A DNA stretch of 63,712 bases, counting the filler, from Stramenopiles sp. TOSAG23-2 (Eukaryota), in assembly GCA_900128395.1 (NCBI GenBank). It is 14 parts of 14 records of this genome, joined end to end, with 100 filler letters (N's around TTAATTAATTAA, not from the genome) between each part and the next. Parts side by side here need not be neighbours in the genome. Positions count along the whole stretch, not along the records: positions 1 to 4,732 come from LT650824.1; positions 4,833 to 9,560 come from LT650825.1; positions 9,661 to 14,386 come from LT650826.1; positions 14,487 to 19,211 come from LT650827.1; positions 19,312 to 24,029 come from LT650828.1; positions 24,130 to 28,837 come from LT650829.1; positions 28,938 to 33,638 come from LT650831.1; positions 33,739 to 38,437 come from LT650832.1; 6 more parts are not named here. One strand, given 5' to 3'. This document shows positions 1-57,311 of this stretch, piece after piece. How positions within the stretch are numbered: position 1 is the first letter of the stretch; the number at the start of each line of letters is the position of its first letter. The position numbers and the translations under genes were made by a program. The notes below the pieces were generated by a model that did no database searches, was not told where the DNA came from, and saw nothing but the letters and a program-made list of their open reading frames with translations.

Positions 1-536
1 ATTACACCAAAACCACCAAAGAAAAAGATCATTATATTTGACGGTAAATTATTGACAAAAACATTTATGGACAATACAATTGAGAAAATTAAAGTACAGC
101 TTTGCGCACATATAATAACTGTAGGGACTGCTTTATCATGCCTCGATACTGCTACCCAAGAATTTTGTTTCATGTTTTAATGATGGTTTGTACACGGTCT
201 ACACTATATATTGCTATATAATATTACTGTATTATATCTTTAACATAAAAAAATTCTTCGTAAAAATATTATTAATAAATAGAGAAAGCAGAACAAATTT
301 GTTTGTTGTGTTTTATGTGTGTTTCAGATAGAAAGAGTTCTTGTATATATTTATAGATGGCTTCCAGAACAAAAGAACATCCAAAGCAAACAACTGTCAA
401 ACTGGCAAACTGGCAAACTACAAGTGATTGGAGGAGCGGATCCTACTTATACCAGCTTACTAGGCTTACAAGCTTTCTGGGCAAAAATTAAAGCTGTCGA
501 ACGAACTATAATAGCTACCTTGTTATACGTGTTAAT

Positions 537-1196
537 TTATAATAACTTTTCCAATTCATTCTTAAACTTTAAGACAAATTCACTTTCTTCTGGATGTTCC
601 CATTGCCATCTCTCAACTTCTCCACGTTCGTTTTCATATTCAAAAAATGCACGTTTGCTTTTACTATCGATCTCCATATACCAACCAACTGGTAATTGCC
701 CTGAAAGCATTTCTTTCGCTATCCACAATAATCTTTGATGATTAGGATTTTTCAAATCCATACCTAACCTACGTTCTGCAAATGCATGAGTATACCTTTC
801 CCGAAACTCTTCATCTGTTAATTCGTTATATAATTTAGCTTTGACACATCTGTATCCATCATAAACGGAATCTTGATCTGCGTGCCAATTTGTTTGTATT
901 ATCATTTTAAAGCCTTTATAACAAGTTGGGCAAGAACCTACTCCAGCTGCTTTATCAAATGAACATACTTTTTTCAAACAATCTACACAATATGCCATAG
1001 ATGAATCAAATGCTTGACCGCAGCACGGAAGTCGAACTTTCTTTATATTTTCTCGAAAGCAAATTGCACAATCATGCTTACGATATTTTTGAAAATATTC
1101 TGCTGCAAGATTTCTCGTTTGAGTCATGTGTGAATTTTTTTTTATTTGAATTGTTGGCAGTAAGGTTAATGCAGACATGTATTTAGTGTAATTCAA
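537..1196 (-). CDS. RING-finger protein with C-terminal CEP164-like WW domain
   Basis: RING-like Cys pattern CAIC..LPCC..YCVDC..CPTC. C-terminal LGMD..LLWIAKE..LPVGW..FFEY..WQWEHP resembles the helix+WW module at the CEP164 N-terminus. The true start may be the downstream MTQTRN. Confidence 0.75.
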   Translation of the reverse strand: MNYTKYMSALTLLPTIQIKKNSHMTQTRNLAAEYFQKYRKHDCAICFRENIKKVRLPCCGQAFDSSMAYCVDCLKKVCSFDKAAGVGSCPTCYKGFKMIIQTNWHADQDSVYDGYRCVKAKLYNELTDEEFRERYTHAFAERRLGMDLKNPNHQRLLWIAKEMLSGQLPVGWYMEIDSKSKRAFFEYENERGEVERWQWEHPEESEFVLKFKNELEKLL

Positions 1197-1599
1197 TTAT
1201 TACTGATTTATTTTTAATCACACTTGATCAAATGTATATATTTTACAATATGTATATGTATCTATAAATCCTCGTTTTAATTAAATTATTATATAATAAG
1301 AATATAATATAAATAATTATTTTGATTGTTTTTCTTGTTTTTAATTTCTTGTTTTTGTTTGTTTGTATATGTTTAAAATCTATTTTATAAAATGCTACGT
1401 GACTACATACTACATATGGTGTTGTTTTTTGTATGTGCGTATAAGAAATAATTATATGGGTAAGCCAGCCCAGCCAGTAGCAGATTTACATGATATTCTT
1501 ATGCTAATATCAGGTTATTGTCCAAATAAACACTGAAAGGAAGTCTAGTATTTTATCAAGAAAAAAAATTTTTATAATTTTTTACATTTTTTTACAGAC

Positions 1600-1893
1600 T
1601 CAACTCAACAATTCCATTTGTTTATGTATTTTCAATTCAGTCATTTCACGATATCGACTATAATTGGTAGATCCTCTTCCTACTACACCAGATGATGCAC
1701 TTTGAGGACGTCGTTTTCGATTTTGCAACTCCACTTGTTGCTGTTCTTTTATATTATTAGGATTTCGTGGTGATTGAGAATAATAACTAGGTAAATTTCG
1801 TCTTTTACTATCATTCTTCTTCATAACATTATTACCATTTTTATTTTTATTTTCCTCACTTAGTACAACGGGCGGTGTATTGTCGTTGTTCAT
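1600..1893 (-). CDS. Short low-complexity hypothetical protein or gene fragment
   Basis: ATG-started ORF (MNNDNTPP...RRPQSASS...) with coding-like composition between AT-rich flanks. No family recognised. Confidence 0.35.
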   Translation of the reverse strand: MNNDNTPPVVLSEENKNKNGNNVMKKNDSKRRNLPSYYSQSPRNPNNIKEQQQVELQNRKRRPQSASSGVVGRGSTNYSRYREMTELKIHKQMELLS

Positions 1894-2184
1894 GGTTTCA
1901 AAATAACCTTTTTTTTTTAGAAAGTCGAAGCAAACAAACGTTTCTTGACTTTTTGATTCCAATAAAATACGGAGGATCAAACATATATTTAGTGCACATT
2001 ATTTAATAACCGCCATATACAGTATCTTTTTTTATAGTTTTTGCAATTAATGGCCTCATATTTTCTTAGTATAATTATTGGTGATCTACTCAATCTTAAT
2101 GCTAATCGCATTGTAGAAGATAGAGTACGAGTTTAGCTGAGTTTATAAATAGTAACTATAAAGTAAACTATTGTTATCCAATAC

Positions 2185-2205
2185 ATAGCGGCGAAATGCC
2201 GCTAT
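2185..2205. other. GC-rich hairpin in intergenic DNA
   Basis: ATAGCGGC-GAAAT-GCCGCTAT, a perfect 8-bp stem in AT-rich context. Confidence 0.5.
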
Positions 2206-2413
2206 AACTCCTCACAGTTTATTAAAACACAATTAGTATCATACAAGGGAGTATTAAAAATAATATTATGTCTTTTATTAAAATTGTGTGAGTAATATTT
2301 TTTATTTTTTTTTTTATTGTGTATTGTTAATTTTCATTTCTTTATTACTCTCGTCGTATTTCATCTCCTCCTCCTTATTATTTTTTGAGGTATTAATATT
2401 ATTATTCTGCTGG

Positions 2414-2619
2414 TTTCTTTCATTCAATTTAATCGAATAATTAATCGTTTTTGGTCGCAACATAGAATATGAATTATCAAATGTAATACGTAAAATGCCA
2501 GGGGTATTGGATATCCTTTCTTTCATTCAATTTAATCGAATAATTAATCGTTTTTGGTCGCAACATAGAATATGAATTATCAAATGTAATACGTAAAATG
2601 CCAGGGGTATTGGATATCC
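2414..2619. repeat. Exact 103-bp tandem duplication inside the 3' end of the Sec14 gene
   Basis: 2414-2516 is identical to 2517-2619. The unit is not a multiple of 3, so it frameshifts the C-terminus (the 2314..2526 ORF carries the likely original tail). Confidence 0.95.
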
Positions 2620-3874: not shown

Positions 3875-3888
3875 TTTTCTTTGGTTTC

Positions 3889-4085
3889 TTTAGGATCAAT
3901 AAAATATATATGTATGATTTTGTTTCTATGTCTGATTACTATATATTGGATCCAATAATGTAAAACTCTATCAGAATTATTTTCAATTTAGGATCAATAA
4001 AATATATATGTATGATTTTGTTTCTATGTCTGATTACTATATATTGGATCCAATAATGTAAAACTCTATCAGAATTATTTTCAAT
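3889..4085. repeat. Exact 98-bp tandem duplication just upstream of the Sec14 start
   Basis: Two identical copies of ttaggatcaataaaatatatatg...gaattattttcaat with period 98. Confidence 0.95.
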
Positions 4086-4732
4086 ACGTACCTATCAATA
4101 AATAAATCTTCACGCATATATCAAACAATAGTTGTGATGTAATGATGGAATGTTAATTATTTTCTATTATCAAATATTTTCTTCTATTATTTATAATATA
4201 TTACAGATATAGATGTTCATATTATATTGTAGTTCTATTAATTCGGAATAGCTATATGCATGTTGGATACGGTAAAAGAGCAAAAAAGAACACATCGAAT
4301 AAAATATTTTGGTTGTTTTTGGGCTTTCCAGGCTTTTGAAAACCAGAATTTCACTGATGATGTGATGCTGTAAAAATTGTTTATCAGTATTATACCACAG
4401 GTAATAAATATTTGGAAGTTGTTGAAGAAGAAAAAAATGTTATAGTGATGTACGTATCTTATAATATTAATCTCCAGATCTCCCAGATCTCGTTTTGTTG
4501 TTGGCACCTTGCCAGCTTGCGTTGCTTTTTTGTGTGTCGGTCAAACCAGGCAAACCAGCAAACCATTTTTTTTTTTTTTTACTTACCAGGTATTACTAGG
4601 GATCTAGCAGGTGTAATATTTCAAGTGCCTTTTTTTTAAAAGTTGCACACAGTCAATACGAATTTAGAGAGCCCAAAACGAAAAAAAAAAAAAAATAAAT
4701 AAAATATATTGCGATAGGTAGATAAATAAAAT

Positions 4733-4832
4733 NNNNNNNNNNNNNNNNNNNNNNNNNNNNNNNNNNNNNNNNNNNNTTAATTAATTAANNNNNNNNNNNN
4801 NNNNNNNNNNNNNNNNNNNNNNNNNNNNNNNN
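4733..4832. other. Artificial contig linker (first of 13; the others start at 9561, 14387, 19212, 24030, 28838, 33639, 38438, 43234, 48029, 52823, 57616 and 62408)
   Basis: 44 N + TTAATTAATTAA (stops in all six frames) + 44 N. Contig lengths between linkers fall monotonically (4728, 4726, 4725, 4718 ... 4692). Confidence 0.99.
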
Positions 4833-5168
4833 GATTTTGTGCTTCCCGACATGAGACGATTTTATCATTTTGCGGTTTGGGCTTTCCAGGCTTTCCCGAC
4901 ATGTCGGTGCCAACCCTGTTGATAATATACAAAAAAATTGTAGCTAATTCTAATAATACAGAGTTATAGAATTAGAATTGATGTGATTTTCCCCATAGTA
5001 TGCAGTGTTATAACAAATCTTTAAAAATCAGTTATACATAATAATAATAAACAACTTAAACCTATATAAAAAACAACAACAACAACACTTCATTATTATT
5101 AACTAATATATACTGTTGTATTACATAGACTATTATTAACATAATTATAATATTGTTTTATCTTTAAA

Positions 5169-8905: not shown

Positions 8906-9918
8906 TGATTACATATATATGATAGAAAGCAGACAAATAATATTATTGAAACAAATCCAACAAATAAATGTTTACCCTTTTTTATCCTTAGTGGTTATTT
9001 TTATAATTTTGATATTGTATAATTCTATTGTGTTTAGTTCTTCCTGTTAATAATTTAGATTATACTGCAACATCTTTTGTGTGTGTGTGAAGTACATCTT
9101 ATATTTTAATATTATAATATTATTACATTGCTATATATATATAGGTGTGTTGTTATTAATATATTATAGTACTAGTAAATATTAATAGTGTTATTATAAT
9201 GTGCACATGTGGCATGCTACCTGGTATAATTATAATATAATGCAAGCCACAGCAAGGCAACCAAGAGGAAGATAAAGAAGAAAAAAAAAAAAGCTGCTGC
9301 CGCGACGTGCGCACGTGCGCACGTTTGATAGGACTTTTGAGCATTTTTGTGCATAGAAGACAGTCAATTTTTATTATCATTGTAATTGTATGCTAATTTC
9401 AATACTGGATTACTGGATGATAATGGGACTACTATGTACTATAAGGTTTTCCGAACCCATAATTATTATACGAATAGTCGGCTGAGGTATGTAGAGATCT
9501 TGCTATGTCCATGCTAAACCTGGCGAATCATCACAATTCATACTCTAACAAGTCCTGCAANNNNNNNNNNNNNNNNNNNNNNNNNNNNNNNNNNNNNNNN
9601 NNNNTTAATTAATTAANNNNNNNNNNNNNNNNNNNNNNNNNNNNNNNNNNNNNNNNNNNNAAACATTAGCACCAGTTATGTTCCCAGTAGTCGATGAGGA
9701 GGAGTAAAAAAAAATAATTTGTTTTTTCTAAAATAATAATACGAAAATATTTTTGATATTTAACGCCATTCATATTTTTGTATTTTTTTTTATAATATAC
9801 TCGTATATTTAAAAATATATTTGTTTACATACGACGCACTTATTATATTTGCACTCTTCTTTCATTTCTCAAGATGTGGAAAAAAAAAACACCAGATGAT
9901 ATGATTTTCTTCTTTTTT

Positions 9919-11583: not shown

Positions 11584-13099
11584 TTTAAATTTTAACTTGT
11601 TTTTGTTTGCTTTTTTTTTTCAAAATGTATATACCAAAAAATATGTTTCTTTTATGATACAATTTCTTTTATATATGTGTGTGAGTGTCGATCTGTTTAT
11701 ATACGCAAAGGGTGATGATTTTTCAATATAGCTTTTGATATCGTTTTCATGTTTCCCATGTTGTTTTTCTCTATTTCAATCTATATATGCCCGTATGATA
11801 GTGCGATACACACAGAATATTCTACCAGGGAGATTCTACTATACATAAATCATCATCTTCTGGCGGCAACAAAATAAAAGTGCAAGTCGTCTATCCCCAA
11901 CAACAATACTAGTCTATAATACAGGTAGCTAGCTCAGCTAGAGCTAGCTCTAGCTACTATTTTATCCTAAATTAGTTCGAAGAAAAACCTTAAAGTTATT
12001 GTTGGACCTATTTTGGATAAATATATATAATACGAAGCTTCGTATAATAATATATGTACAAGTACATGTAATATTAATAATAAAGATATATATATATATA
12101 CATATTAATATATCCACATAAGATAGAAATGAATGGACGCACAAATAAATTAATATGCGTAAATTAAGTTATATTAGAAAATGTATAATATTTTGAATAT
12201 TATTCCTGAGTATATTTACCATGGGAAGTAAAATTAATTAATTTTACCCATCATATTATAATATAATGTCAAACTTTCGTGCAAATACATCCAATCTTCA
12301 AATAAATCTAGAATACAAAACGGCATTACCTTCTATCTGTTTCAACAAATGCACTAAATATTGTTTTCTTGACAGGTTTCACACTTCCTTGAATAGCTTT
12401 CAATGTCGCACCAGCTCCATCTCCAACTCCTCCAACCACAGCTGTTACGTGTTTTTCTTTTAGTTTCAGCACATCATCATTAGTGCATAACAATTCATCA
12501 ATTTGTCATAATAAGATGTTTTTCAAAATGGATATCTTTGATGCAAAAAGTATGAAATAATACGACAATATACAACGTTTTATTTCTAATACAATCGGTT
12601 ACTTTAATTTGTATGATATATATAGGTAGCTATCATTACATATTTGATCGATTTGGATTTTATCATCATCTTTCCATCAACCACAAGGATTTTATACAGT
12701 TGTATATTTTATAGGCAGAATTAGAATATTAAACCTTATACACAACGAAAAATTTCTGAAATTGCACAAATCGCGTTTTCATAAAACTCTTTTTTAAAAA
12801 TATACTAAGTATATATATTAGTATACTAATAGTTCTATCAAATCAAATATCCAAAATCAAAATATATGCACGCACGAAAAGACTTTTACAAGGGATCCAT
12901 ATATATAATTAGAATCATTTTGTTGTTGTACTAAAAGAACAAAGAAGAATAAAATCAACAGGTCGATCACGGAAATATATACTATTATACAAGAGAGAAC
13001 AGTAAATACACAACACATTATAGAGATTAGATACATACATACATACATATATTATTATTATTATTATTAATATAATATAAATTTGAATATAATTATAGA

Positions 13100-13603: not shown

Positions 13604-14955
13604 ATAAATATACGAGTATAGCTATATATAGATAGCCAGATAGCCACAGATAGGAGTCTGTATACGATTTTTAATGTTGTGTAAAAATACGAGGAGAACT
13701 TTGTGATATTTTATAATTTTTATATAATATAATGTTTGTGTAAAATACGAAAACCAATATCATAAACCATAATCTTGGGGCCCTTTTCTCCCCTCTAACA
13801 AAGTCTTCCCGCCGGTTTTTATACGAATCGTAAATCACATTTTATTCTCAGGACCATTGACAATTGTAATTGTGCCAAGAGGGAAACTGGATATAATCCT
13901 TCGAAAAATTATACATAGAAGAAAAGAAGAGCACTTGTAAGTCCTGGTAATTTGTGTAAATTAATAAATTTATACAGTTCTTCAAATACGGATATTTATT
14001 GTATAACTTTGGAATGGGTGCCTGTATTTTTTGGGAATTTTGAGAACATGATTTTTTTGTCAAAAAAAAGAAAAAAAAAGATTTGTTGAGAACGAAACCG
14101 AGCATTAAAATTTATGTTCGTTTATGAAGCTTTCTATAAAGAAACTACGCGTATGACAAATTCTGCTCGACGTAAAGATCGCAAGAAAATATCAAGATTA
14201 AGTGTAATAGAGCAACGAGCGCAAATGGTGGAACGTAATACGAGTAGTCAGGTTTGAGAAGAAAGAGAGAGAGAGAGAGAGGGAGGGAGAGAGCATGTAA
14301 AATTTGTAAAATTTTAATTTTAAAAGAAGAAGTTATTTAGTCACACATAATATTAGCTTTTAAAATATTCGTATTAAAATTACGATNNNNNNNNNNNNNN
14401 NNNNNNNNNNNNNNNNNNNNNNNNNNNNNNTTAATTAATTAANNNNNNNNNNNNNNNNNNNNNNNNNNNNNNNNNNNNNNNNNNNNCTCTCTCTACTTAC
14501 ATAACTTCTTACTTACTGTATCAAAAAAATTTAATTCATTATTAATTTATTTTTTTAGTTGTGCAGTTGCAGTTCTTCATCATCATTGAAACATTAACAT
14601 TACCCATAACCTTAAATTATAATACAACTCCTCTGTGTTTGTACTTTTTGTAGACTGTGCTACTAATATTTCTATATATCTGTATTTTTATATCTTTTTG
14701 TTCTGTTTGTTTTTTGATTGATTCATTCATTGAAGGCAGGCAGGCAGATCCGAAGAAGATCTTGAGAAGACGAGAGAGGAAGTAGTTCGCTCGTAGTAAA
14801 ATGTACGTTCGTAATTCGTACAATAATGTTTTTTGTGTTTCTCTCTCTAGAATATGGCCCAAAAGAATAATGTAACTGAGGCAATAAATATCTATATCTC
14901 GTTTTTATTAATACGTATATATATTTTTTTAAATAATTTTTTTACGAACCGTATA

Positions 14956-18249: not shown

Positions 18250-19164
18250 TGTTGTACAGTAGATTTTCTTATTGGGAATGAAGTAATTGCATATATATAT
18301 ATAGTATAGCCAACAATAATATTTGATCGTTATATATTATATATATCTTTGTTTAAATACTAAATACTAATGTAGAAACATTTATATTTATAAGAAATAC
18401 AGGGTAGACCAATAGACACACTATTAAAAAAAAAGAAGAAAGTGTTTATTTTATTACCAGCTTAACTTACTAGTTGTCGCTCGCCCCTTTAATTCATGAA
18501 AGAGCCTGACCAGCTGACAACGCAGACTTAGACGACTATCGCCCCTTTTTTGGTGGCTCTATTATACCTTAACCTGATTTAAGATTGCTGCTGATGTATA
18601 TCATCAAAGCATATTTTAATTTTAAAAGGAGAGAAGCAAGACGTAGAAGACGAGACACCAATACTGTAGACTAGTGTGAAGGCCAGGGAAGGGACCGAGT
18701 AATCAAAGCATACCATCTTATTAATCTGGATAAAACTCTATTCAATTTAAGGTGTCATCACTTCTTTTAAGGGAAATGAGAAATGAGAAAGAACTTGACC
18801 TTTTTTTTGTGAGTAGATGTGAGCCTCTCATTTTGCCTTGTTTTATATTTATAATAATTTAATCTTTTTTTTGTGCTTTTCGCTACAGATCATCAAAAAA
18901 AATAAGTTGATCTCCTAGTAATTACTATGGACATACCATTGCATTTACAACAACTTGTATTAATTATTTTGTTGGATGAAACAACCAAAAAGATAGGGGA
19001 GAGATAATAGAATAAATAGTTTGGATCATGTCGATGTATTTAGAAATAGAACCAACTACAAATTTTTTATATATATTATTTGATTAGTATCTGTATTATT
19101 ACTACACCATAGGAGAGAGAGAGAAACAGGAAGAGAACGTATTACAACGACAAAAGCAACAACA

Positions 19165-19211: not shown

Positions 19212-19619
19212 NNNNNNNNNNNNNNNNNNNNNNNNNNNNNNNNNNNNNNNNNNNNTTAATTAATTAANNNNNNNNNNNNNNNNNNNNNNNNNNNNNNNNN
19301 NNNNNNNNNNNATCACAATTAAAAGCTATAGAACAATATAAAAGAGATGGATCAAACGGGTATCAACAAGTGAAATGGATGACGATGTTCACATAATAAT
19401 AAATATTATATATTTATGTACTACCAACTACTTTACCCCTCTATATATTATCCAAATTTCTCATCCATCAGTCCATCAGCCCATCATCCATCATTATAGT
19501 TGCACATTATTAAAATACCTCATCAGCTTTTCTCCTCTTTTCTCCTCCACACTTAGCATGGACTTAGCTGGTTAGCATGGACGCAGGCAGGGCACCATCA
19601 ATATTAATATGTCAATATG

Positions 19620-19824
19620 TCTATCATCTAGGAGATCTATCTCTACTAATAACAGGAATAAGACTATGACTGTATGTCCAGATGTCGTCCAGTCAGTCGT
19701 CTATCATCTAGCCTTAGCTAGGAGATCTATCTGTACTAATAACAGGAATAAGACTATGACTGTATGCCATTCAGTCGTCTATCATCTAGGAGATCTATCT
19801 ATACTAATAACAGGAATAAGACTA
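19620..19824. repeat. Three diverged tandem copies of an approximately 80-bp unit
   Basis: Core tctatcatctaggagatctat.t.tactaataacaggaataagacta at about 19620, 19700 and 19778. Copies differ by short insertions containing local duplications. Confidence 0.9.
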
Positions 19825-24029: not shown

Positions 24030-24626
24030 NNNNNNNNNNNNNNNNNNNNNNNNNNNNNNNNNNNNNNNNNNNNTTAATTAATTAANNNNNNNNNNNNNNN
24101 NNNNNNNNNNNNNNNNNNNNNNNNNNNNNCTAATCGTAATGATGATGATGATGATGATGAATTAGAAATTGATTTGAAATAAATCATTGTACACATAGAG
24201 TTGTACTTTGTAGAAGATTATGTTTTGATCCCAGTGTCTCGATGAATATGAGAGGATTGAAGAGGACTAATCATCGTTTGAATAAATTATTAATTCTGGA
24301 ATTAGGACGAGGGAATGTTTTTCCTATAAAAATTTCATATGCCATATCATACCTTTTGTATTTTTATATATCATATATATATGTATATTTAAAATATAAA
24401 AATTACACTTTTAATCTTTTTAATTCTCAAAAAATATAATCGATGTGTACAGTGTACAGCCAATATGTGTTAATTCTTTTTGTATGTTATTTTTTTATTA
24501 CTCAGAGACTCTAAAGGTATGTGACAGGTGTGGTGGATCGTCCACATTTTTGCATTTTTTAATGTTTATTGCGCGTACATATTATTTATATATATTTTTA
24601 TATTATAAATATATTTTTCTATCACA

Positions 24627-28992: not shown

Positions 28993-29442
28993 TTTTTTTT
29001 TTAAGTACAATTCTAAGTATACTAAGGCTGGCTTTTTTGCACCGGTTGTTTTGTGGGACTTTAGCTTGAGGACGACTTGCACTTGACTTGACAACAGCCT
29101 TTTTTTTATCAAATAAATTAAAATCATTTTACAGGTATTATAATACCAGATTACAATACCAGGAATACAATACAGTATTAATAACAGTCTGTACAGTGTA
29201 TTAATATATATTTCAAAAACAATAGGACTATTATATAATCGGGAGAATCCCTGCTATATGCTATAATATTAACATGTATTGGTGTTAATATCAATACTAT
29301 CAATACTAATACTGTGTTAATGGTATATTTATGTAAATATCAAACAACAAAACAACAACCTACTATATAATAATAATAATAATACTGTGTAGTTTCTTGA
29401 ATAATTATAATAGATAGATAGATTAATACATACACCGATACG

Positions 29443-32880: not shown

Positions 32881-33738
32881 GTTGTGGTATGCTTATAATA
32901 TATAAAAATCGCGTTCCTTATATAATAATATAGTGAGTGTTGCCAATATCTATATAAAGGTATATGATGGATATTAATTATTTATGTAAATAAATATTAT
33001 TATTTGTGGTTTCGAAAAGAAAGAAGATGATTGATGATGGTTGTTGTTGTTGAGTTTTAACATTTTAACATGCACATAGCACCATCTTCCAATTTTAAAC
33101 TAATCAAACGGAGTAGAGGACAATAATATATGAAGAAATTAGAATAAGAATGACATTTTTATCTTCGTATAGATGACTTCGAATAAGTGGATTACAAAAG
33201 ATCGTTTGTGCAATGTGGTATTTGCCTTCTGGCCTTCAGATTTTCTATATAATACTTCGTATATATTTTTAAATCAAAATTTGTGAGAGCAAAAATTGGA
33301 TCTACATTTTGTGGCACCTTTGGACATTGTTGAACTATCAGATAATATAAAATTATCGTTACAAATAATATCTATCTATCTATATATATATATAACAACA
33401 ACAATGGTGATAATATGTACGATTGTTTGTTTTCGTTATTGTTTTCTTTTCTTGATCGTTCTTTTATGTATATCTACGAGATGTGTACACATTTGTTTTA
33501 CATATCAAATCTATAGACGACCTGGTTTATGGGTTACTTGGTGCATTTTTGATGATTTCAACAACAATGGCAATGATTGAAAGAAGGCCAAAAAGGAAAA
33601 GAAGAAGAAGAGATATTATAATACAGTAATTAATCGTANNNNNNNNNNNNNNNNNNNNNNNNNNNNNNNNNNNNNNNNNNNNTTAATTAATTAANNNNNN
33701 NNNNNNNNNNNNNNNNNNNNNNNNNNNNNNNNNNNNNN

Positions 33739-36916: not shown

Positions 36917-37018
36917 GAAAGAGTCTGACGCTGACGACGCAGACTAGTTCACACAGGTCACAGGGAATAACAAATTAAAATAGTCGTCTGATGGCACTCT
37001 GCGTCGTCAGACTCTTTC
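36917..37018. mobile_element. Approximately 100-bp MITE-like element with 21-bp inverted arms
   Basis: Left arm GAAAGAGTCTGACG(CTGACG)ACGCAGA pairs with the right arm TCTGCGTCGTCAGACTCTTTC. A homologous arm occurs on another contig at 18498-18528. No clear TSD. Confidence 0.6.
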
Positions 37019-37019
37019 T

Positions 37020-38845: not shown

Positions 38846-39579
38846 AAACACTCTACCGTCCTGGATTATCAAAATCAAAAAGCTGTCGAGGTGTTGAAGC
38901 AAAAAAATGGTATGTATTGTACAAGCCCAGCAAGCTAAAAGGCAAGCCAATATGATACAGTTTTGGTAAATCTCTCTTCATCATTTTCATGTTCCTTATT
39001 AGGGTAATAGCATTGAATATATATTCCCTGCTGTGTTTATTTTTTTATTTTTTTACGGTAAACGACAACATAAACGGCCTCCAATGCCACGTAATCACCA
39101 AAAAATAAAAAGTCGATTTTTAAGCCAATTACAATCACTCATCACTCTATGATAAACGTTATGTACATAAGTTTGAAAAAAATAAATATATATATAGTCT
39201 AGATAATAATTAGTAACACATTATAAAATGAATGGTATATATTATTAGAGATATAATATATGGATATTACATATCTTTTGGTGGAATTATTAAAGAGTTT
39301 TAAGTTCGACTGAGCTTTTTGTGTTGTCCAGTTGTTATTTTTACCTGACGTGAGAACCTATCTCCTGCCTCTGTAACCGTATTTATTGAACAGTATGATG
39401 CATATATATATTATCATTCAATTGTTGATTTAGATTATTGGCCATAGCTGTATATTATACGAGGAGGTAAAGAAAAACATTGTATATATTACATAATAGA
39501 TATAGATAGATATATCATATTCATAAAACCAATAATTATATTTGTTACCATTCTATTATTATATTTATTCAATATAATA

Positions 39580-43723: not shown

Positions 43724-45988
43724 ATGGCAGAGGTAGATTCAAAAAATTTTAAAATTCCACAAAAGGAAACTGATAATGCAAAAGAAGCAAATACGAATGA
43801 AGAACCAAAAAAAAAAGGAATGATGGACAAAATTAAAGCATCAAAACCATATCAAATGTATGAACGTTTTAAGACATGGAAAACATACCATTTCATACAA
43901 GCATTGCTATCATATATCGCGTTGATTACCTTGTTAGCGTCACTTGGACTTTTAAACAATCCGCCTGAGTTCCCATATCCAACTCAGGAAAGCGATATTA
44001 AATCAGCTACTGAATTTAATGCAGGAAAGCCAAATAACAGTCCACTGTTTAGGAAGTTAGCTGGTATTACCGGAAATGAAAAAATGAAAAATACGAAATA
44101 TATTTATGCAACTGAAAATGGAAAAGCTTCTGTACGAGTTTGCACTGACTTATCAAAGGAAGAATTTGAAAAAATTGCTGGAATCAATGAGAAGCAGGAA
44201 CTCAGATGGGATCCACTTTGGTACCAAGGTGTTCAAAAATTATATGAAAAAGGTTGTGTTAATGCGTCTGTACTGGCATACAATGGTGGATGTTATGATG
44301 GGCCAATTTACTCTAAACTTACAGGTGTAGGATCGAAAACATCCTGGACAGGTCCATATGAGCGGGGTAATTGTGGAACACCTACTGAAACAGCAAAACT
44401 ATTTACTAATCCTGCCGGGAGTAATGGTTGGCTTTGGCATTATATGATCCGACCAAAGGCAACTTTAAATCCATGGCCAGACAGTAAAACATTAACTTTT
44501 CGAAATTGTTCAACAACAGAATGTGATGTTGCAAAATGTTATGATAAAGATTGTTACGATGTATCTCAAACTTGTAATGGTTGGTATGAAACACAGGGCG
44601 ATTGTGGTTCTACTGCCAATCCTCAAAATGGTACAAATGCAGGAAGCTGTAATCAAATTATTGAAAAAGATTCAGGAAATGGATATTGTGATTGTGGAGA
44701 CAATCGCAGAGTATACATGTGTAATTCAGATTTCACTTTTAAATGTGCAGATACATGTAAATGTGTTCCACCAGCATTATTGACATCAACATGTTCCAAC
44801 ACATGTACTTGTGATGAAACCACAAGTATACAACGATCAGAACCAGATTGGATAATTGCAAACCCGGACTTGGAAAGGAAAGATGAGCTTTGCCATGCTG
44901 CTTTTGGCCGTTTCAATATGTTTCCGTGTGAACATGATACTGTATTAAGTTATGGACAGCAAACACAATGGATCGTTAGCTTGTTTGTTGCAGCTACTGT
45001 ACTTCGTATTATATTTCAAATTTCATGTTTATACTGGGGATTTACAGAGGATAATTTTGATTACAGAATATTATTCGCATGTGAAACTGTTGTTCGTGCC
45101 TACTATGTTTGTAAAGTTGGTACAGCAAAAATAAACAAAGTGGAAGAAAAAGAATATCTACAAGGTTGGCCATGGTTTCTTGGATTGGTAGATGCCATTT
45201 TGGTATCGATTGCAACGTTAGGCGTTGCGTACGGAGCAGATCCTTTCCCAGAACTTGGAAAAGGACGCACTGCACTTTTCTTTCTGTGGATAAGTGCCAT
45301 TCGAGAGATATTAAATTTAGTATATAAACTCTACGATTCATATTCTAAAAAGGCATATTACGTCAAAAGTAAATCTTATAACGTTGAGTGTTGCAAAAAA
45401 ACAATTCCATGGTGTTACGGTTCTAATGAAGAAGAGGAAAAAGAAGACATGGTAAAGGCTGCAACAGATAATCCACTTTACGTTCTACCAGGACAACAAC
45501 AAGGTTTGCAAATGCAACAACAGCAAATGCAGCAACAGCAAATGCAACAACAGCAAATGCAACAACAGCAAATGTGGCAACAGCAAATGCAACAACAGCA
45601 AATGCAACAACAGCAAATGCAGCAACAGCAAATGCAGCAACAGCAAATGCAGCAACAGCAAATGCAACAACAGCAAATGCAACAACAGCAAATGTGGCAA
45701 CAGCAAATGCAACAACAGCAAATGCAACAACAGCAAATGCAGCAACAGCAAATGCAGCAACAGCAAATGCAGCAACAGCAAATGCAACAACAGCAAATGC
45801 AACAACAGCAAATGCGACAACAGCAAATGCAACAACAGCAAATGCGACAACAGCAAATGCAAATTGCTTGTCCTCCCGGTTATAGGCCTGGACAAAAACT
45901 TCAAATAAAAACAGCAAGTGGCCAACGATTGAAAGTTATAATCCCCCAAGGTATAAAACCTGGTGATATATTTGTTGTGAATATATAA
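43724..45988 (+). CDS. Multi-pass membrane protein with Cys-rich extracellular domain, (QQQQM)n tract and small C-terminal beta domain
   Basis: TM near aa 55-75, a Cys-rich loop, 3-4 further TMs, a Gln/Met repeat, and the terminal IACPPGYRPGQKLQI..GQRLKVIIPQGIKPGDIFVV. Confidence 0.85.
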   Translation: MAEVDSKNFKIPQKETDNAKEANTNEEPKKKGMMDKIKASKPYQMYERFKTWKTYHFIQALLSYIALITLLASLGLLNNPPEFPYPTQESDIKSATEFNAGKPNNSPLFRKLAGITGNEKMKNTKYIYATENGKASVRVCTDLSKEEFEKIAGINEKQELRWDPLWYQGVQKLYEKGCVNASVLAYNGGCYDGPIYSKLTGVGSKTSWTGPYERGNCGTPTETAKLFTNPAGSNGWLWHYMIRPKATLNPWPDSKTLTFRNCSTTECDVAKCYDKDCYDVSQTCNGWYETQGDCGSTANPQNGTNAGSCNQIIEKDSGNGYCDCGDNRRVYMCNSDFTFKCADTCKCVPPALLTSTCSNTCTCDETTSIQRSEPDWIIANPDLERKDELCHAAFGRFNMFPCEHDTVLSYGQQTQWIVSLFVAATVLRIIFQISCLYWGFTEDNFDYRILFACETVVRAYYVCKVGTAKINKVEEKEYLQGWPWFLGLVDAILVSIATLGVAYGADPFPELGKGRTALFFLWISAIREILNLVYKLYDSYSKKAYYVKSKSYNVECCKKTIPWCYGSNEEEEKEDMVKAATDNPLYVLPGQQQGLQMQQQQMQQQQMQQQQMQQQQMWQQQMQQQQMQQQQMQQQQMQQQQMQQQQMQQQQMQQQQMWQQQMQQQQMQQQQMQQQQMQQQQMQQQQMQQQQMQQQQMRQQQMQQQQMRQQQMQIACPPGYRPGQKLQIKTASGQRLKVIIPQGIKPGDIFVVNI
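45509..45862 (+). repeat. Coding 15-bp minisatellite (QQQQM, about 23 units) with 120-bp higher-order period
   Basis: Unit ATGCAACAACAGCAA with variants. The Trp-variant units are 120 bp apart and 45541-45660 equals 45661-45780. Confidence 0.95.
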
Positions 45989-46328: not shown

Positions 46329-47536
46329 CTGCCATTTGGCAGTTTTTCCATGTTTCCTATCACTTTGTACTTACGGGCGTAGTAAAATAAAATTATATAG
46401 AAAAGAAAAATCGTATTGTATTAAGTAGAACAGTATAGAACTGCCAAATGGCAGTTTTGTCGTTACCGAGGCGATACCCTTCACTAAATTGCCTATTTAA
46501 TAACCTTAAAAAAGTAGTATATGCCATACAAGTACAATTCCTGTTTCCTCCAACTGCCAAACGGACATTTTTCCTATGGTATCCTTTGCCAGACTGTATC
46601 AGCTTTTTTCTGCAACAGTGTTTTTATTTAGTCATTAGCACGTACATACCCGGCGAAATGAAATTTTAAATTGCCAAAGTTTACACAAAACACCACCAAA
46701 GCAAATTTTACAGAAAAAAATGTCACTTGGAAAAAGACCAGCTTTTTGCGATACACGGTAAGATGGAAATAGTACAGCAAAAATGTCCAAATGGCTGTTT
46801 TTCATCTAGTCGGAGACAAAAACACTGAAGGAAATACACGATAGCATTGAATAGTGTAGAAAAAATGTCCAAATGGACATAAAAACCGATAGCGATACAC
46901 GGTAAGATGGAAATAGTACAGCAAAAATGTCCAAATGGCTGTTTTTCATCTAGTCGGAGACAAAAAACACTGAAGGAAATACACGATAGCATTGAATAGT
47001 GTAGAAAAAATGTCCAAATGGACATAAAAACCGATAGCGATACACGGTAAGATGGAAATAGTACAGCAAAAATGTCCAAATGGCTGTTTTTCATCTAGTC
47101 GGAGACAAAAAACACTAAGGAAATACATGATAGCATTGAATAGTGTAGAAAAAATGTCCAAATGGACATAAAAATTCTGCTATTTCGCAACAAATGCAAC
47201 CCATATACACGATACACGATACCCAAGAAAAAAATACCTACAGATTGTAAAGTGCTAAAATACACTTTAACATACAATTGCACTGGAAAAACATCCATTT
47301 GGACGTTTTTTTGATCCCAAAATTTCTTTATGCTCCAATACACAGTAGCATGTCAATAGCACTAGAAAAGTGTCCAAATGGCAGTATTTTAAGAACTGTC
47401 CAAATGGATGTTTTCCTTCCAGTATTTCAGCATTGCAAAAACCAGAGAGAATCTCTCTGCAAAAACATCCATTTGGCAGTAGTAAAAAACCTAAAAAAAC
47501 ACTGAAAATGACAATAACAAAACTGCCATTTGGCAG
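46329..47536. mobile_element. Non-coding 1.2-kb element with palindromic termini, flanking TA dinucleotides and many internal palindromes (putative non-autonomous DNA transposon)
   Basis: TA|CTGCCATTTGGCAGTTT at the left end and AAACTGCCATTTGGCAG|TA at the right end. About 14 copies of the CCA-AA/TT-TGG palindrome in total. Confidence 0.6.
46748..47174. repeat. Three tandem copies of a 144-145-bp unit, each carrying two palindromes
   Basis: Unit starts gcgatacacggtaagatgg at 46748, 46892 and 47037, with small indels between copies. Confidence 0.95.
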
Positions 47537-47558
47537 TACTTAAAGCTGTTGAACTACC

Positions 47559-47838
47559 TTGTTATACGTGTTAATTTAATGCTAAGCCCATGGTAGGATA
47601 CTGCCTCGAAACATCCGAAAACAAGTTTTACAATGAAAAATATTCGCGAAAAGGCCTCCAAAAGCAAGAAAATTACAAAATTCTGAAAATATGTGTTCTT
47701 GTTATACGTGTTAATTTAATGCTAAGCCCATGGTAGGATACTGCCTCGAAACATCCGAAAACAAGTTTTACAATGAAAAATATTCGCGAAAAGGCCTCCA
47801 AAAGCAAGAAAATTACAAAATTCTGAAAATATGTGTTT
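47559..47838. repeat. 140-bp tandem duplication
   Basis: ttgttatacgtgttaatttaatgctaagccc...gaaaatatgtgtt occurs twice with period 140. Confidence 0.95.
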
Positions 47839-52268: not shown

Positions 52269-52822
52269 GTGAATTTAATCAAAACCTTTACTAACATATA
52301 TATACATGCATTCAAAAATATACCACCGAATACTTGTAAATACGATGAGGAGGATAGTTTATTTTATAACTTTTTTAGCTGCAGACCATGCGATAAAACA
52401 TCACCTGCATCGTGTTTTGGATCGTTGAAATATCAATCACAACAAGCATATACTAATTGGGCAACAAGTGCATACGGTGCGTTATGTATCGTTGATTTGT
52501 TTGGTTTCATCGCAATACTTGCCTTGAAAAAATCATTGAATCGATTTAAGCGTGAAAGTTTAAATCGAAGCAGACCTATAATTATCGATGCTAAAAATAA
52601 ATTTAAAGAATTACTAGCAGAGCAAAAAGATATTGTGCCATCAAGTACATTTAAAAAATCTCAAGCAGCAAATAGTAAAGATACGTGGCAAGATAAAATA
52701 CGATTTGATAGACGATACGATCCATTGTTTAAGACTGGTCAAAAGATAGGTAGAAAAATATTATCAGATAAAGATCGTGAAAATATATTTAATGATCATA
52801 TTGAGAAATTAATAAAGGATCG
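52269..52822 (+). CDS. Partial protein with a TM segment followed by an FF-like domain
   Basis: TM ALCIVDLFGFIAILAL, then AKNKFKELLAE..TW..IRFDRRY..DRENIFNDHIEKL (FF consensus). The start is unclear and the ORF runs into the linker. Confidence 0.6.
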
Positions 52823-53861
52823 NNNNNNNNNNNNNNNNNNNNNNNNNNNNNNNNNNNNNNNNNNNNTTAATTAATTAANNNNNNNNNNNNNNNNNNNNNN
52901 NNNNNNNNNNNNNNNNNNNNNNTTCGGAGTCTAAGAAATCGTACCACTCCGTTCCTGAAGTCGGTTGCATTGGGGCAGGAGAGAAGGGTCGAAAAAAATG
53001 TCAAAAAAAAATTTTCCGCGTTGTGCCACATATATCAGGAGAGGATAGCATGTCCCACAGTTATGTGGTGAATGAACAATTTTTTCCACAAAAATAGCGT
53101 TTTTTTGTAAATCGGGATGATAGAGAAAATGTGTTTTACATACTTAAATCGGCGAAAATTAATATATTTTTGCTTTGTTATTAGTGTTAAAAAAAGTTGT
53201 TTATATTTTTACCGAGGATTTGGTACTAAACGTAAGAAAACTTTAATTATAAATAGTGTTATTTTTTAATTAAGGGGACATAAGAAAACATAGAAGAAAG
53301 TGGATAGAAATTAGAAAAAATACCAAGATATTGAAATAACCGCAACAATTGGCAAAAAATTACAAGAAACCGTGGATTTTGTAAATTAAGTAACAATAAT
53401 TTAATAGTGAATAGTGTATTTTTAATATTTAAGGATACCAGACGATTTAGAACACAGCTGATAGAAATTAGAACAAGTATTTATATGAATAACAACATAA
53501 AATTAATGTACGACGCCGGCCACCCAAAATGATTGCAATTACTTCCTCCTTATTTCGAACATTTGCCGGCGGCGTTAGCCCCTAGTATCCTTAATTAGAT
53601 TAATAGCAATATTTACATTGCACCATTCTTCTTCTGAATTTAAAAAAGCACAAATGTGCAAATAGAACAAACAACTATAACAACAAAATAAAAAAGCACA
53701 AGCATAACAAAGTCACAGCCATATATTTAAATACTAAATCAAAAAGTTATATACAAATCCAACTGTATTACAATATACCACTTACTTTAAAAAACAAGAA
53801 AAGATCCAGATCACACATACATAAATATATATTAATACAAATAAAACATCTTATTGATAAA

Positions 53862-54734: not shown

Positions 54735-55765
54735 AAAAAATATACACACATATTCCTCCTGTTTTTAATGAAAGGGATAAATTGCAGAATGATATTTTAT
54801 TAAATTTTATTTTATTCATTCATATACGAATGTTCAACGAGGCGTAAGGAAGGAAGGAGATATATAATAGAAACCCGCTTGTGCTACGAGTAGTAGAGTA
54901 TTAGAGTACAAAGTTTGTACGTGTTACAGTGTAAAAAACGTGCATGCATTAGAGCTTCTATTAAATATATACAAGTCGCTGAAAACAAATGTGCAAAGAT
55001 CTCGAACAAAGCCGAGGTAAGGGAGCTCGCAGCTTCCAATTGGATTTCTACTACGTGTAGAGATATACAAAGCGCGATTATTAAAACTTGCGCTTATAAT
55101 AATCGTTTTGCTTTAAAATGTGCATTTGGCGAGTCGTATAATGACTTGTACCCCGGTACAATTTATTCTCCGCCTTCAACTATGATGTCCGTTTTTCATC
55201 AACTGCAAGTTGATACCATCTATTGACCTTCGCTGGTATTCTCTATTATGAGAATATCAACACACTAGTGTGAGGTAGATATTTAAAATTCTGATATTAT
55301 ATATTATTGTCTCCAGTTATTGTATTCTTTTTGAAGAATAGGAATTATCACGAGTAAATTAATAAAAAAAATTAAATATTATATTTCTTATAATATGCGT
55401 ATAAATTAAAATTACTTTTTAGGATATATATATATAACATATGAGTAAGAGAAAAACACATATATATGGTTACTCGTGATGAGATATATATAAATAATTT
55501 CCTAATGTTTATACGTACCAGTATCATATAATAAATAAGTATTTATAAAAATCATTTTTGATTTGAGATGTTAATGAACGGGAGTAAAAGAAATTTATAT
55601 AATATATGAGTAAGAGAACATTTTATATATGGTTACTTAAATTAAATTATTACGGCTCGTAAAATATATATATATATAATATTCAATACTCGTACTTCTT
55701 AAAAGGACTGCTGAAAATATTTTGATTTGCCATTTCCGCGAAGACTTCCTGCTTCCTGTGATTTC

Positions 55766-57115
55766 TCATTTTTTTTGTTCTGTTGCTGTTATTAAATTAT
55801 TATGATTGCTTTTTTTACATTCATTTCCATTATTATTATTTTCATCAAAAAACGTTAATACTCGTTCAAACTTAGTTGCAACAATTTCATGTTGATTGTA
55901 TAGTACATTTAATTCTTCACTTAATGCTATAGTTACTGCATCTATTTTTTCATCTTTTGTTAATATATTCAACAAATTCGTATCAATATAAAAGGACTTT
56001 ATTCTACTTTCTACTTCATTATTCTTATCATTCTTCTTATTATTATTTATAATAATATGACCATCATCAACAGTTTGTAAATTTAATTTATTAGGTTCAT
56101 ATTCTGATAATAAATGTTTATGAATACGTGGATTATCTTTCAATACATAATGACTTGTTAAAGATGATGAAGTAGACGGATCATCATCATTAACATTATC
56201 GTTTTTTTTCTCAAAATTGTTTTCTACATCCGATTTTAATAAAGGAACTTGAGCTAACATACCAGTATTTTTTAATGTATGAAATATATTTGTTGATGTT
56301 ATCATATCAATACCTTTAATTTTATTAGAAAAATACTTTTCATTTAGTATTGGTTTCTCTATGGATATTAGTTCCAATTTTGTTGTCTTTTTTTTTAGGA
56401 CGAGTGGCATCATATGTTTAGAAAATCTAAACATTGCTAAATCATCTTTCATAAATGTATAAATAGCAGCAGGTGCAGCAATTTCTGGTTTGACAGGGGA
56501 TATTTGAATATTCACAGCACAAAATGGCAATGGTGATGTTGTTAACTCGGTCATCATAGCACCACCAGAAGATGCACCAAAGCCATATAATGGGTATTTC
56601 TGTAAATTTAAGTCCTTACGGATATTATTGATTAATTTAATTAAGGGCAAACGTTCTTCCTTTAAATTCCAACAACCACGCTCATCATCTTTTGTAATAG
56701 CTGCGATGGAAAGACCATTTTTTAATGCTTTTTTGACAATGATTAAACCCTCAGGGGAATAAAAAAATGATGCTGCTAAGCGACTACAACCATGTAATAA
56801 AACTAATAACCCTTTTTCTTTTTTACAATTTTTAATAACGAAAATATTTCGACCATTATCTTTTTCTATACGTTTTATTGGTGACAATGGTTCTTGTTCA
56901 TTATTATTATTAGTTTCTACAGACCAGCAATTTTGATTATTGTTTGTTTTAGAATTGCTAGAAAGGGCTGACATATAATTATTTGAAGACAACATGCCAG
57001 TTTTTTTAAAGACGAAAAGAATAAATAGTAACATACTAACTGTTGCAAACATCATATTAATTTTTAAATCGTTCCGAGTTTTTCTTCTCGGTGTCCTAGA
57101 TGGATATCCATGCAT
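55766..57115 (-). CDS. Membrane-anchored alpha/beta-hydrolase-fold protein
   Basis: N-terminal TM anchor, LLVLLHGCS, nucleophile elbow GASSGG, and a late His (QHE). Confidence 0.78.
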   Translation of the reverse strand: MHGYPSRTPRRKTRNDLKINMMFATVSMLLFILFVFKKTGMLSSNNYMSALSSNSKTNNNQNCWSVETNNNNEQEPLSPIKRIEKDNGRNIFVIKNCKKEKGLLVLLHGCSRLAASFFYSPEGLIIVKKALKNGLSIAAITKDDERGCWNLKEERLPLIKLINNIRKDLNLQKYPLYGFGASSGGAMMTELTTSPLPFCAVNIQISPVKPEIAAPAAIYTFMKDDLAMFRFSKHMMPLVLKKKTTKLELISIEKPILNEKYFSNKIKGIDMITSTNIFHTLKNTGMLAQVPLLKSDVENNFEKKNDNVNDDDPSTSSSLTSHYVLKDNPRIHKHLLSEYEPNKLNLQTVDDGHIIINNNKKNDKNNEVESRIKSFYIDTNLLNILTKDEKIDAVTIALSEELNVLYNQHEIVATKFERVLTFFDENNNNGNECKKSNHNNLITATEQKK

Positions 57116-57245
57116 GGTGTTTTATTGTCTGGTATAATATGTTTACGAGTATTATGTATATATTGTATCATTATATACATACTCATCCGTATAATATTTC
57201 AATAATTATTGAAATATTGAAATAATATATATTCCGTATATACAA

Positions 57246-57311
57246 CTGGCATTCTGGCATTCCAGCATTCTGGCATTCCAGCATTCTGGCATTCCAGGCA
57301 TTCCAGCATTC
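57246..57311. repeat. 8-bp-period array in which CATT alternates with CTGG or its reverse complement CCAG
   Basis: CTGGCATT CTGGCATT CCAGCATT CTGGCATT CCAGCATT CTGGCATT CCAGGCATT CCAGCATT. Confidence 0.95.

What the first reader, a model, noticed from the sequence alone, without database searches (positions are those of the whole stretch)
405..57311. Recurrent intergenic scars: a 5-bp duplication wrapped around CAG/CTG, with a filled-versus-empty pair visible in the window
Seen: non-coding DNA on at least 7 independent contigs carries the same micro-structure, with a different duplicated word each time. Examples: GCAAA-CTG-GCAAA (405-417), CTTAC-TAGG-CTTAC (456-469), ATCTC-CAG-ATCTC-CCAG-ATCTC (4470-4491), CTTGC-CAG-CTTGC (4508-4520), CAAAC-CAGG-CAAAC-CAG-CAAAC (4542-4563), CTTTC-CAGG-CTTTC (4882-4895), ATAGC-CAG-ATAGC (13632-13644), CTGAC-CAG-CTGAC (18506-18518), ATGTC-CAG-ATGTC (19674-19686) and GCCTT-CTG-GCCTT (33224-33236). 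The repeat arm GAAAGAGT-CTGAC-GACGCAGA (reverse complement of 36998-37018) reappears at 18498 as GAAAGAGC-CTGAC-CAG-CTGAC-AACGCAGA, a net 8-bp gain of CAG plus a 5-bp duplication. Established: cut-and-paste excision can leave target duplication + terminal CAG or CTG + target duplication (Sleeping Beauty-type TA-CAG/CTG-TA footprints), but there the duplication is 2 bp. Inference: a very active element or integrase with CAG...CTG ends and an approximately 5-bp target duplication has repeatedly visited the same intergenic hotspots and built much of the local sequence.
Basis: partly seen in the sequence, partly recalled or inferred. Interest (0 to 1): 0.8.

Follow-up and report, generated by a model that had tools for sequence, protein, structure and literature searches.

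The report
Transposon-type exit scars upstream of genes
The non-coding DNA of this marine protist carries many tiny insertions, a 4-base duplication wrapped around CCAG, that look like scars left where a jumping gene landed and left again, often at the same spot upstream of genes, although the jumping gene itself was not found.

Summary
The motif is real but mis-parsed. In a 550-kb sample of this 32.8-Mb assembly, CAG/CTG is the top spacer between 5-bp repeats (74 vs 4.3 expected). The true unit is a 4-bp duplication around CCAG/CTGG: 80 of 697 non-coding sites vs 4.4 expected, but 9 of 1,561 coding sites vs 8.9. There are 5-nt variants and a symmetric target preference, G|HWWD|C. Empty alleles lack the core: an 8-nt deletion at 4508 in two runs and three repeat-family pairs. 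In arrays, 24 of 56 neighbouring spacers point opposite ways, which slippage cannot give. Scars peak 200-400 nt upstream of start codons and cover 0.8% of non-coding DNA. Best reading (0.7): excision footprints of a cut-and-paste transposon with Tc1-like cleavage inside its ends but a 4-bp target stagger, each scar regenerating the target. No parent element was found in about 0.8 Mb or among the transposases examined. The scan earlier noted TA-flanked scars in this genome (e1-7156635); word searches found no note of this class.

The parts
398..417 (.). Array CAAA-CTGG-CAAA-CTGG-CAAA (two scars at one target)
456..468 (.). CTTA-CTAGG-CTTA, probable decayed CCAGG scar
   Evidence: decay inferred
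4324..4336 (.). CTTT-CCAGG-CTTT scar at the favoured G-CTTT target
   Evidence: GCTTTCCAG(N)CTTTC has 258 matches genome-wide vs 3 reversed
4470..4490 (.). Array ATCT-CCAG-ATCT-CCCAG-ATCT
4508..4519 (.). CTTG-CCAG-CTTG; polymorphic, the empty allele C-CTTG-C exists
   Evidence: 8 letters left out at 4508 in contigs of runs X1 and X2
4542..4562 (.). Array CAAA-CCAGG-CAAA-CCAG-CAAA
4882..4894 (.). CTTT-CCAGG-CTTT scar
13632..13643 (.). ATAG-CCAG-ATAG scar
18498..18529 (+). Copy of a dispersed 24-nt repeat carrying a CTGA-CCAG-CTGA scar (18506-18517); family copies are the empty allele
   Evidence: 99 genome-wide matches to the repeat's 13-nt core, 98 with T where this copy has C
19564..19575 (.). 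TTAG-CTGG-TTAG scar
19674..19685 (.). ATGT-CCAG-ATGT scar
24292..24303 (.). AATT-CTGG-AATT scar
29155..29167 (.). AATA-CCAGG-AATA scar
33225..33236 (.). CCTT-CTGG-CCTT scar
36917..36946 (+). Copy of the 24-nt repeat with CTGA-CG-CTGA, a shorter (+6) scar at the same target word as 18506
   Evidence: scar status inferred
36998..37018 (-).
38922..38934 (.). CAAG-CCCAG-CAAG scar
39324..39335 (.). TTGT-CCAG-TTGT scar
57250..57310 (.). Seven-spacer array on CATT: CTGG, CCAG, CTGG, CCAG, CTGG, CCAGG, CCAG (mixed orientation)
57890..57915 (+). Empty copy (T-ACTA-C) of a dispersed repeat whose copy in L087 carries ACTA-CCAGG-ACTA
58028..58040 (.). CGTT-CCTGG-CGTT scar

Best explanation
The motifs are excision footprints of a cut-and-paste (DDE) DNA transposon family. 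Shown: a fixed 4-nt insert CCAG/CTGG (5-nt variants CCAGG/CCTGG and CCCAG/CTGGG) sits between two copies of a variable 4-bp target; the target preference is symmetric, G|HWWD|C; either orientation occurs; empty alleles carry one copy of the 4-mer and no core; sites concentrate upstream of genes and are not enriched in coding DNA. Inferred: a dimeric transposase inserts with a 4-nt stagger; on excision it cuts the non-transferred strand 3-4 nt inside the element, as Tc1/mariner enzymes do, leaving identical 3' overhangs on both flanks; end joining anneals them through partly mismatched pairs (full overlap gives CCAG or CTGG, a 1-nt shift gives CCWGG). Because the insert starts with C and ends with G, each scar recreates two G-N4-C targets, so repeated insertion and excision grows arrays with mixed spacers; slippage probably lengthens some afterwards. 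The element most likely starts 5'-CCAG (CCAGG class 31 vs CCCAG class 16), but 5'-CTGG is not excluded.
For: Enrichment 80 of 697 non-coding vs 9 of 1,561 coding sites; replicated in 17 AT-rich metagenome contigs with the seed word excluded, 13 vs 0.5. 34 different 4-mers among 68 clusters. Symmetric target: G before in 54 of 80, C after in 61 of 80; first base C/A/T/G 35/28/16/1, last base G/T/A/C 27/25/25/3. Empty alleles without the core. Arrays: 14 of 56 neighbouring spacers identical, 24 of 56 opposite. In-genome controls for the principle: a Tc1-like element with TA|GAGC...GCTC|TA ends and TA-GAGC-TA 14 vs 4.6 (P=3e-4); a Tc1-like element with TA|CAG...CTG|TA ends and TA-CAG-TA 89 vs 42.5. 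Mechanism precedent: passages of PMC8151067, PMC7913693 (2-4 bp footprints), PMC10992017 (Minos 6-bp footprint), PMC1925063 (reinsertion beside an old footprint).
Against: No element with CCAG...CTGG, CTGG...CCAG, CCA/CTG or direct CCAG...CCAG ends plus a 4-bp TSD in up to 654,910 held bases or in 124,571 bases of related contigs; the only two hits lie inside longer fold-backs. Where ends could be read, the transposons examined have TA-, ATAT- or 8-bp-type flanks and other termini; ends were not seen for C6173, C759, C5137, C8749, C1955, C3069 or the C626 fragment, and only one side for C4814. No longer terminal remnants (CCAGCTGG, CCAGTGG, CCATGG all 0). The CCCAG variant does not follow from CCAG ends without a slip or a 5-bp duplication. 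Thousands of scars with no visible parent, and a dozen events at one site, are unusual. One array (L022) shows a block-level repeat, so slippage contributes.
Confidence: 0.7

Rival explanations
1. Element-free cut-and-tag: a host or domesticated enzyme makes a 4-nt staggered break at G|HWWD|C in open promoter DNA; fill-in duplicates the 4-mer and a fixed tag (CCA/CCAG) is added or ligated before joining.
For: No parent found; strict 4-5-nt inserts with no longer remnants; a narrow zone 200-400 nt upstream of ATG; long single-site arrays.
Against: Several parallel classes with different fixed inserts (GCAC, CGAG, CGAAG, CAG, GAGC), two of which match the ends of transposons in this genome; no enzyme of this kind is known to me.
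Confidence: 0.1
2. CCAG/CTGG is a promoter-binding word kept by selection, and the duplications come from slippage around it.
For: Divergent intergenic regions hold 40 clusters per 344 target-type words vs 4 per 136 in convergent ones (P=0.004), with a peak 200-400 nt upstream of ATG; CCAG is over-represented in non-coding DNA, 701 vs 429. The pair L148 vs L058 can be read as a plain 8-bp duplication.
Against: Four empty alleles lack the core; perfect 6-bp tandems G-N4-C-G-N4-C are not enriched (2 vs 0.8); neighbouring units are mostly non-identical and often inverted; 34 different words are duplicated.
Confidence: 0.08
3. A 6-bp duplication G-N4-C around a 2-nt remnant CA/TG (element ends CA...TG or TG...CA, integrase- or Tc1-like).
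For: 34 of 67 clusters fit G-N4-C-CA-G-N4-C exactly; H-N4-C-CA-H-N4-C 9 vs 1.1 and G-N4-D-CA-G-N4-D 5 vs 1.6 are slightly enriched.
Against: 26 clusters have no G before the first copy yet keep the G of CCAG, against 2 with the reverse change (P=3e-6); in the empty alleles at 4508, 18506 and L087 the base before the 4-mer is C or T, so the G was inserted.
Confidence: 0.07
4. Extremely 5'-truncated target-primed retro-insertions (3-5 nt of cDNA) with short duplications.
For: The genome holds reverse transcriptases (8 matches) and a 24-nt repeat with a fixed end, a variable end and 9-13-nt duplications.
Against: Fixed 4-bp duplication, fixed insert length and a palindromic target preference fit a dimeric DDE enzyme; no longer inserts share the CCAG end.
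Confidence: 0.04
5. Library or assembly artefact.
For: The assembly has artefact-like duplications of 103 and 98 nt that all four laid runs skip.
Against: No coding enrichment; same signature in 17 contigs of other assemblies; the X1 contig spans 3987-4581 with only 4 gap letters unlisted, so it keeps the neighbouring scars.
Confidence: 0.01

Closest known systems
Tc1/mariner excision footprints (Sleeping Beauty TA-CAG/CTG-TA; ZB; Minos 6-bp footprint; Stowaway)
   Same: Duplicated target around a short fixed remnant in either orientation; remnant of 2-4 nt; reinsertion beside old footprints (passages: PMC8151067, PMC7913693, PMC10992017, PMC1925063).
   Different: The duplication is a variable 4-mer with preference G|HWWD|C, not TA; the scar regenerates the target and forms arrays of up to 14 spacers; no parent identified.
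Superfamilies with 4-bp TSDs: Sola1/Sola2 (AWWT), Ginger2 (TATA), piggyBac (TTAA)
   Same: 4-bp duplication with an A/T-rich centre (passages: PMC3845634, PMC3627910, PMC8151067).
   Different: First base is C in 35 of 80, not A; piggyBac leaves no footprint; I saw no description of Sola or Ginger footprints in the passages read; the piggyBac-like element here has ATAT flanks and CCTC ends.
Bacterial short tandem octamer arrays, some beside four-helix-bundle genes (TIGR02436); the name STRR is recalled
   Same: Intergenic GCTTTC arrays with variable centres; two lie within 700 nt of TIGR02436 genes.
   Different: Bacterial spacers are diverse (CA, AG, TA, AA, CG, TG, GA, GG); protist spacers are almost only CA/TG/CAG/CTG; CCAG is not enriched with other words in the non-protist loci (rate 0.0064 vs median 0.0055); no PF05635 match in G000. 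These loci were selected by the pattern.

Membership tests
Tc1/mariner footprint | TA target duplication | tested here: not met
   34 distinct 4-mers among 68 clusters
Tc1/mariner footprint | Fixed 2-4-nt remnant between the duplicates, in either orientation | tested here: met
   CCAG 51, CTGG 29 on the + strand; 5-nt variants also occur
Tc1/mariner footprint | Remnant equals the terminal bases of a TIR element with a DD34E/D transposase | tested here: inconclusive
   Eight DD34E-like loci examined: three with both ends readable have TA flanks and other termini, one has one side readable, four have none
Any cut-and-paste footprint | Empty allele has one target copy and no remnant | tested here: met
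   window 4508 in X1 and X2; 18506, L087 and L060 against family copies; a fifth pair (L148) is ambiguous and left out
Any cut-and-paste footprint | Occupied allele (full element between the same duplications) | tested here: inconclusive
   none in about 2% of the genome plus 125 kb of related contigs
piggyBac | TTAA duplication and footprint-free excision | tested here: not met
   variable 4-mer with a retained insert; PMC8151067 passages
hAT | 8-bp TSD; filler derived from flank hairpins (recalled), hence variable | tested here: not met
   4-bp duplication, constant insert; no PF05699 match (a weak negative)
Sola1 | AWWT duplication | tested here: not met
   first base C 35, A 28, T 16 of 80
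Sola1 | Sola-type transposase | tested here: inconclusive
   PF25273 gave no match and rang in no control; its link to Sola1 is my recall only
Slippage-born tandem repeat | Unit pre-exists once and neighbouring units are identical and co-oriented | tested here: not met
   core absent from four empty alleles; 14 of 56 identical, 24 of 56 inverted
Tc1/mariner footprint | Cleavage inside the element ends shown biochemically | not testable with these tools
   needs an excision assay

The most novel reading that the evidence does not exclude
There is no parent element: a host or domesticated enzyme of this protist cuts promoter-proximal DNA with a 4-nt stagger at G|HWWD|C and leaves a fixed CCAG tag, a self-renewing mutation process that writes arrays 200-400 nt upstream of genes and could tune expression. 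A milder novel reading, which I put at about 0.4, is an undescribed DDE family that combines Tc1-like cleavage inside the ends with a variable 4-bp target duplication and promoter targeting.
Probability: 0.1. Interest if true: 0.85.

Novelty: new variant of a known kind. Interest (0 to 1): 0.5.

Why it matters
The scars specify the ends, target preference and cleavage geometry of a mobile element that homology searches did not find, so they give a way to discover transposon families from footprints alone. They suggest a source of recurrent +8/+9 promoter polymorphism in wild protist populations and a route to short tandem arrays that is not slippage. An unbiased scan showed several such classes side by side with opposite positional biases, which makes insertion preference and end-joining rules testable in an uncultured eukaryote.

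Tried and rejected
Parent by structure: TIR+TSD scans for CCAG/CTGG, CCA/CTG/GCA/GTG and direct-repeat ends gave chance-level pairs and two hits inside longer fold-backs. Parent by domain in G000: rve one weak hit, not fetched; DDE_3 four plus four further loci; DDE_Tnp_1_7 two; DDE_Tnp_4 one; none for PF25273, PF07592, PF03184, PF05699, PF10551, PF20700, PF01609, PF05635; four of these eight rang in no control, so those negatives are weak. The 4.7-kb element of earlier notes was located: its ends read (A)CAGT with TA or 8-bp flanks, so it is not the parent; its relative on C1955 showed no clear ends. The CCA at the start of C4814 looked like an element end, but the contig begins there and the second genomic match has no TA flank: not claimed. 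An automated empty-allele search over 201 strand-counted sites recovered only the L087 pair, array-internal matches and two weak matches, and no slippage-type allele. The introner idea was dropped: the scars are not enriched in coding DNA (PMC/bioRxiv 10.1101/2022.06.06.494994, passages). Runs X3 and X5 do not cover 4508, so they say nothing on that site. The metagenome pattern admitted CAAG/CTAG/CAGG centres and so pulled in many bacterial arrays; 70 of the 87 loci were set aside as non-protist by GC and context before the replication count. Literature searches showed no description of a CCAG footprint with a 4-bp TSD; the library lacks most subscription journals and Repbase, so this is a weak negative.
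Full report
Setting. The window is 14 contigs of about 4.7 kb joined by N spacers, 31% GC, with long eukaryotic ORFs. It belongs to a 32.8-Mb assembly in 9,146 contigs; runs that hold it are small genome runs and marine metagenomes. Only part of the genome could be read, so the statistics rest on 550,048 bases (1.7%): the window, 40 stretches ten-kb chunks of long contigs. 'Non-coding' means outside ORFs of 150 aa or more (188,183 bases) and so includes introns and short genes.

Observation. Every quoted string is present. Among 3-nt spacers between exact 5-bp repeats, CAG/CTG ranks first in non-coding DNA (74 vs 4.27 expected from re-paired flanks), on a general background of 1,800 vs 501; coding DNA shows 968 vs 971.

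The true unit. On the CAG strand the repeated word ends in C in 61 of 74 cases and is often preceded by G, so three parses compete: 5+CAG, 6+CA and 4+CCAG. Of 67 clusters of N4-CCAG-N4, 34 have both outer bases (G...C), 13 lack the G, 7 lack the C and 13 lack both (shuffle means 0.0, 0.6, 0.5, 1.9). Single changes inside the core with intact outer bases number 3, 1, 0, 1, 1 and 2. The core is therefore fixed and the outer G and C are a preference. Against this, 6+CA forms with other outer letters are mildly enriched (9 vs 1.1; 5 vs 1.6). An unbiased scan over duplication lengths 2-5 and insert lengths 2-6 returns CCAG (80 vs 2.5) as the top 4+4 class and CCAGG (31 vs 1.2) and CCCAG (16 vs 0.5) as the top 4+5 classes. 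The target is symmetric, G|HWWD|C. Coding DNA has 9 of 1,561 CCAG/CTGG sites duplicated vs 8.9 expected, and 5 of 263 CCWGG sites vs 1.9. There are 96 clusters vs 2-7 in shuffles, roughly 5,500 genome-wide by simple extrapolation. One favoured word alone, GCTTTCCAG(N)CTTTC, has 258 matches vs 3 reversed. Seventeen AT-rich metagenome contigs, ten of which share sequence with G000 among the 25 BLAST rows printed, repeat the signal with the seed word excluded: 13 vs 0.5, 7 vs 0, 4 vs 0.1.

Empty alleles. Contigs of runs X1 and X2 (one study, near-identical contigs, so one haplotype) lack 8 letters at 4508, leaving C-CTTG-C with no core; X3 and X5 do not cover the site, and 31 further indel rows were not shown. 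Its copy at 18498 gains CCAG+CTGA, with two extra substitutions; a copy in L060 gains CCAGG+CAGA, the only such case among the 100 of 188 matches listed. A second repeat is empty at window 57890-57915 and carries ACTA-CCAGG-ACTA in L087. In three of these four pairs the base before the 4-mer is C or T, so the G is inserted. A fifth pair (L148 vs L058) could be plain slippage and is left out.

Arrays. Splitting arrays on the 4-mer gives spacers almost wholly from CCAG, CTGG, CCAGG, CCTGG and CCCAG. Over 21 array blocks, 14 of 56 neighbouring spacers are identical and 24 are in opposite orientation (includes four arrays fetched for their pattern). Units are thus mostly added anew. This fits the geometry: G-N4-CCAG-N4-C contains two G-N4-C targets. 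L022 also shows a repeated block, so slippage adds to it.

Position. Clusters per 100 target-type words are 11.6 in divergent, 7.1 in tandem and 2.9 in convergent intergenic regions (40/344, 17/240, 4/136; P=0.004). Density peaks at 1.26 per kb 200-400 nt upstream of the nearest ORF start, against 0.07 within 100 nt and 0.2 at 800-1,600 nt (starts are first ATGs of long ORFs, not mapped). This fits targeting of open promoter DNA with purging near the start, and it also keeps the promoter-motif rival alive. Intact scars cover 0.77% of non-coding bases.

Mechanism. Tc1/mariner transposases cut the non-transferred strand a few bases inside the element, and end joining leaves those bases between the duplicated target (PMC8151067, passages); such footprints are 2-4 bp (PMC7913693, passages); Minos leaves 6 bp (PMC10992017, passages); reinsertion beside a footprint is described for Stowaway (PMC1925063, passages). 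By inference the CCAG class comes from an element with CCAG (or CTGG) termini and a 4-nt target stagger. Two 3' CCAG overhangs pair C:G, C:A, A:C, G:C in full overlap (giving CCAG or CTGG) and C:G, A:A, G:C when shifted by one (giving CCWGG). CCCAG needs a slip, a 5-bp duplication or CTGG ends.

What was not found. No such element appeared in structural scans. Ends read for three DD34E elements, one piggyBac-like element and the 4.7-kb element of earlier notes do not match. Other hits had no readable ends, and eight domain searches were empty. About 98% of the assembly was not scanned structurally, and short-read assemblies break at repeats, so absence is not shown.

Comparison and novelty. 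It works like a Tc1/mariner footprint but fails the TA test; it fails the piggyBac, hAT and Sola1 target tests (PMC3845634, PMC3627910 and PMC4455052, passages). Bacterial GCTTTC arrays found by the same pattern have a broader spacer spectrum and are treated as a look-alike. Searches (listings only, apart from the papers named) showed no CCAG/4-bp footprint; no supplements were read. Verdict: real, a new variant of a known kind, parent unidentified; interest 0.5.

Noticed in passing
window 9199-9210, 11797-11808, 14557-14568, 47248-47259, 53616-53627, 62150-62161 and genome sample: A second class, N4-GCAC-N4 (66 of 749 non-coding sites vs 5.3) with a GCAAC variant (16 vs 1.2), replicated in related contigs (13 vs 0.2); it would predict ends GCA(A); no parent found.
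   Followed up: partly
genome sample: TA-flanked scars (CGAG, CGAAG, CCAGG) are densest in convergent intergenic regions (1.47 per kb vs 0.29 in divergent), the opposite of the CCAG class; they may account for the TACG/CGTA clusters at gene 3' ends noted in e1-7155787.
   Followed up: partly
window 18498-18529, 36917-36946, 36998-37018; L042-L070: A 24-nt repeat (99 core matches) with an internal hairpin, a fixed end, a variable fold-back end and 9-13-nt duplications in about 12 of 31 printed contexts, read by eye; resembles 5'-truncated Helitron2 copies with variable TSDs (PMC3627910, passages).
   Followed up: partly
window 2413-2517 and 3888-3987: Tandem duplications of 103 and 98 nt that all four laid runs skip: probable assembly artefacts.
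   Followed up: partly
window 325-542: X1, X2 and X5 contigs continue with other sequence before 543, so this block, which holds the scars at 398 and 456, is a polymorphic insertion or another haplotype; its end resembles the 140-nt tandem at 47558-47837.
   Followed up: no
L071:125-5425: A 5.3-kb element with TIRs of about 40 bp starting AGACGACTA and two convergent ORFs (364 and 1,336 aa open frames); short AGACGACTA relics are common between genes.
   Followed up: no
L111-L114, L120-L124: All four DDE_3 transposase genes lie tail to tail with a second ORF, inside long TIRs where these were seen; the C720 element reads CA at both ends of the top strand.
   Followed up: partly
L119:1205-5149: A 3.9-kb piggyBac-like element with ATAT rather than TTAA flanks and a 928-aa open frame.
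   Followed up: partly
L011:165-1231 and ten other loci: Fold-back elements of 100-1,070 nt with long imperfect arms and no clear target duplication; one pair of arms differs only by CCAGG vs CCTGG near its end.
   Followed up: no
L164, L197 and other high-GC loci: Bacterial intergenic GAAAGC/GCTTTC octamer arrays with variable centres, often as inverted pairs; two lie beside four-helix-bundle genes. Their origin is unexplained.
   Followed up: partly
window 25564-28317 (-): A 917-aa ORF with no Pfam match, a GDGNC motif like that of OTU proteases (recalled) and a coiled-coil-like tail.
   Followed up: no
window 45418-45937: 24 copies of a 15-nt unit encoding QQQQM at the C-terminus of a membrane protein.
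   Followed up: no
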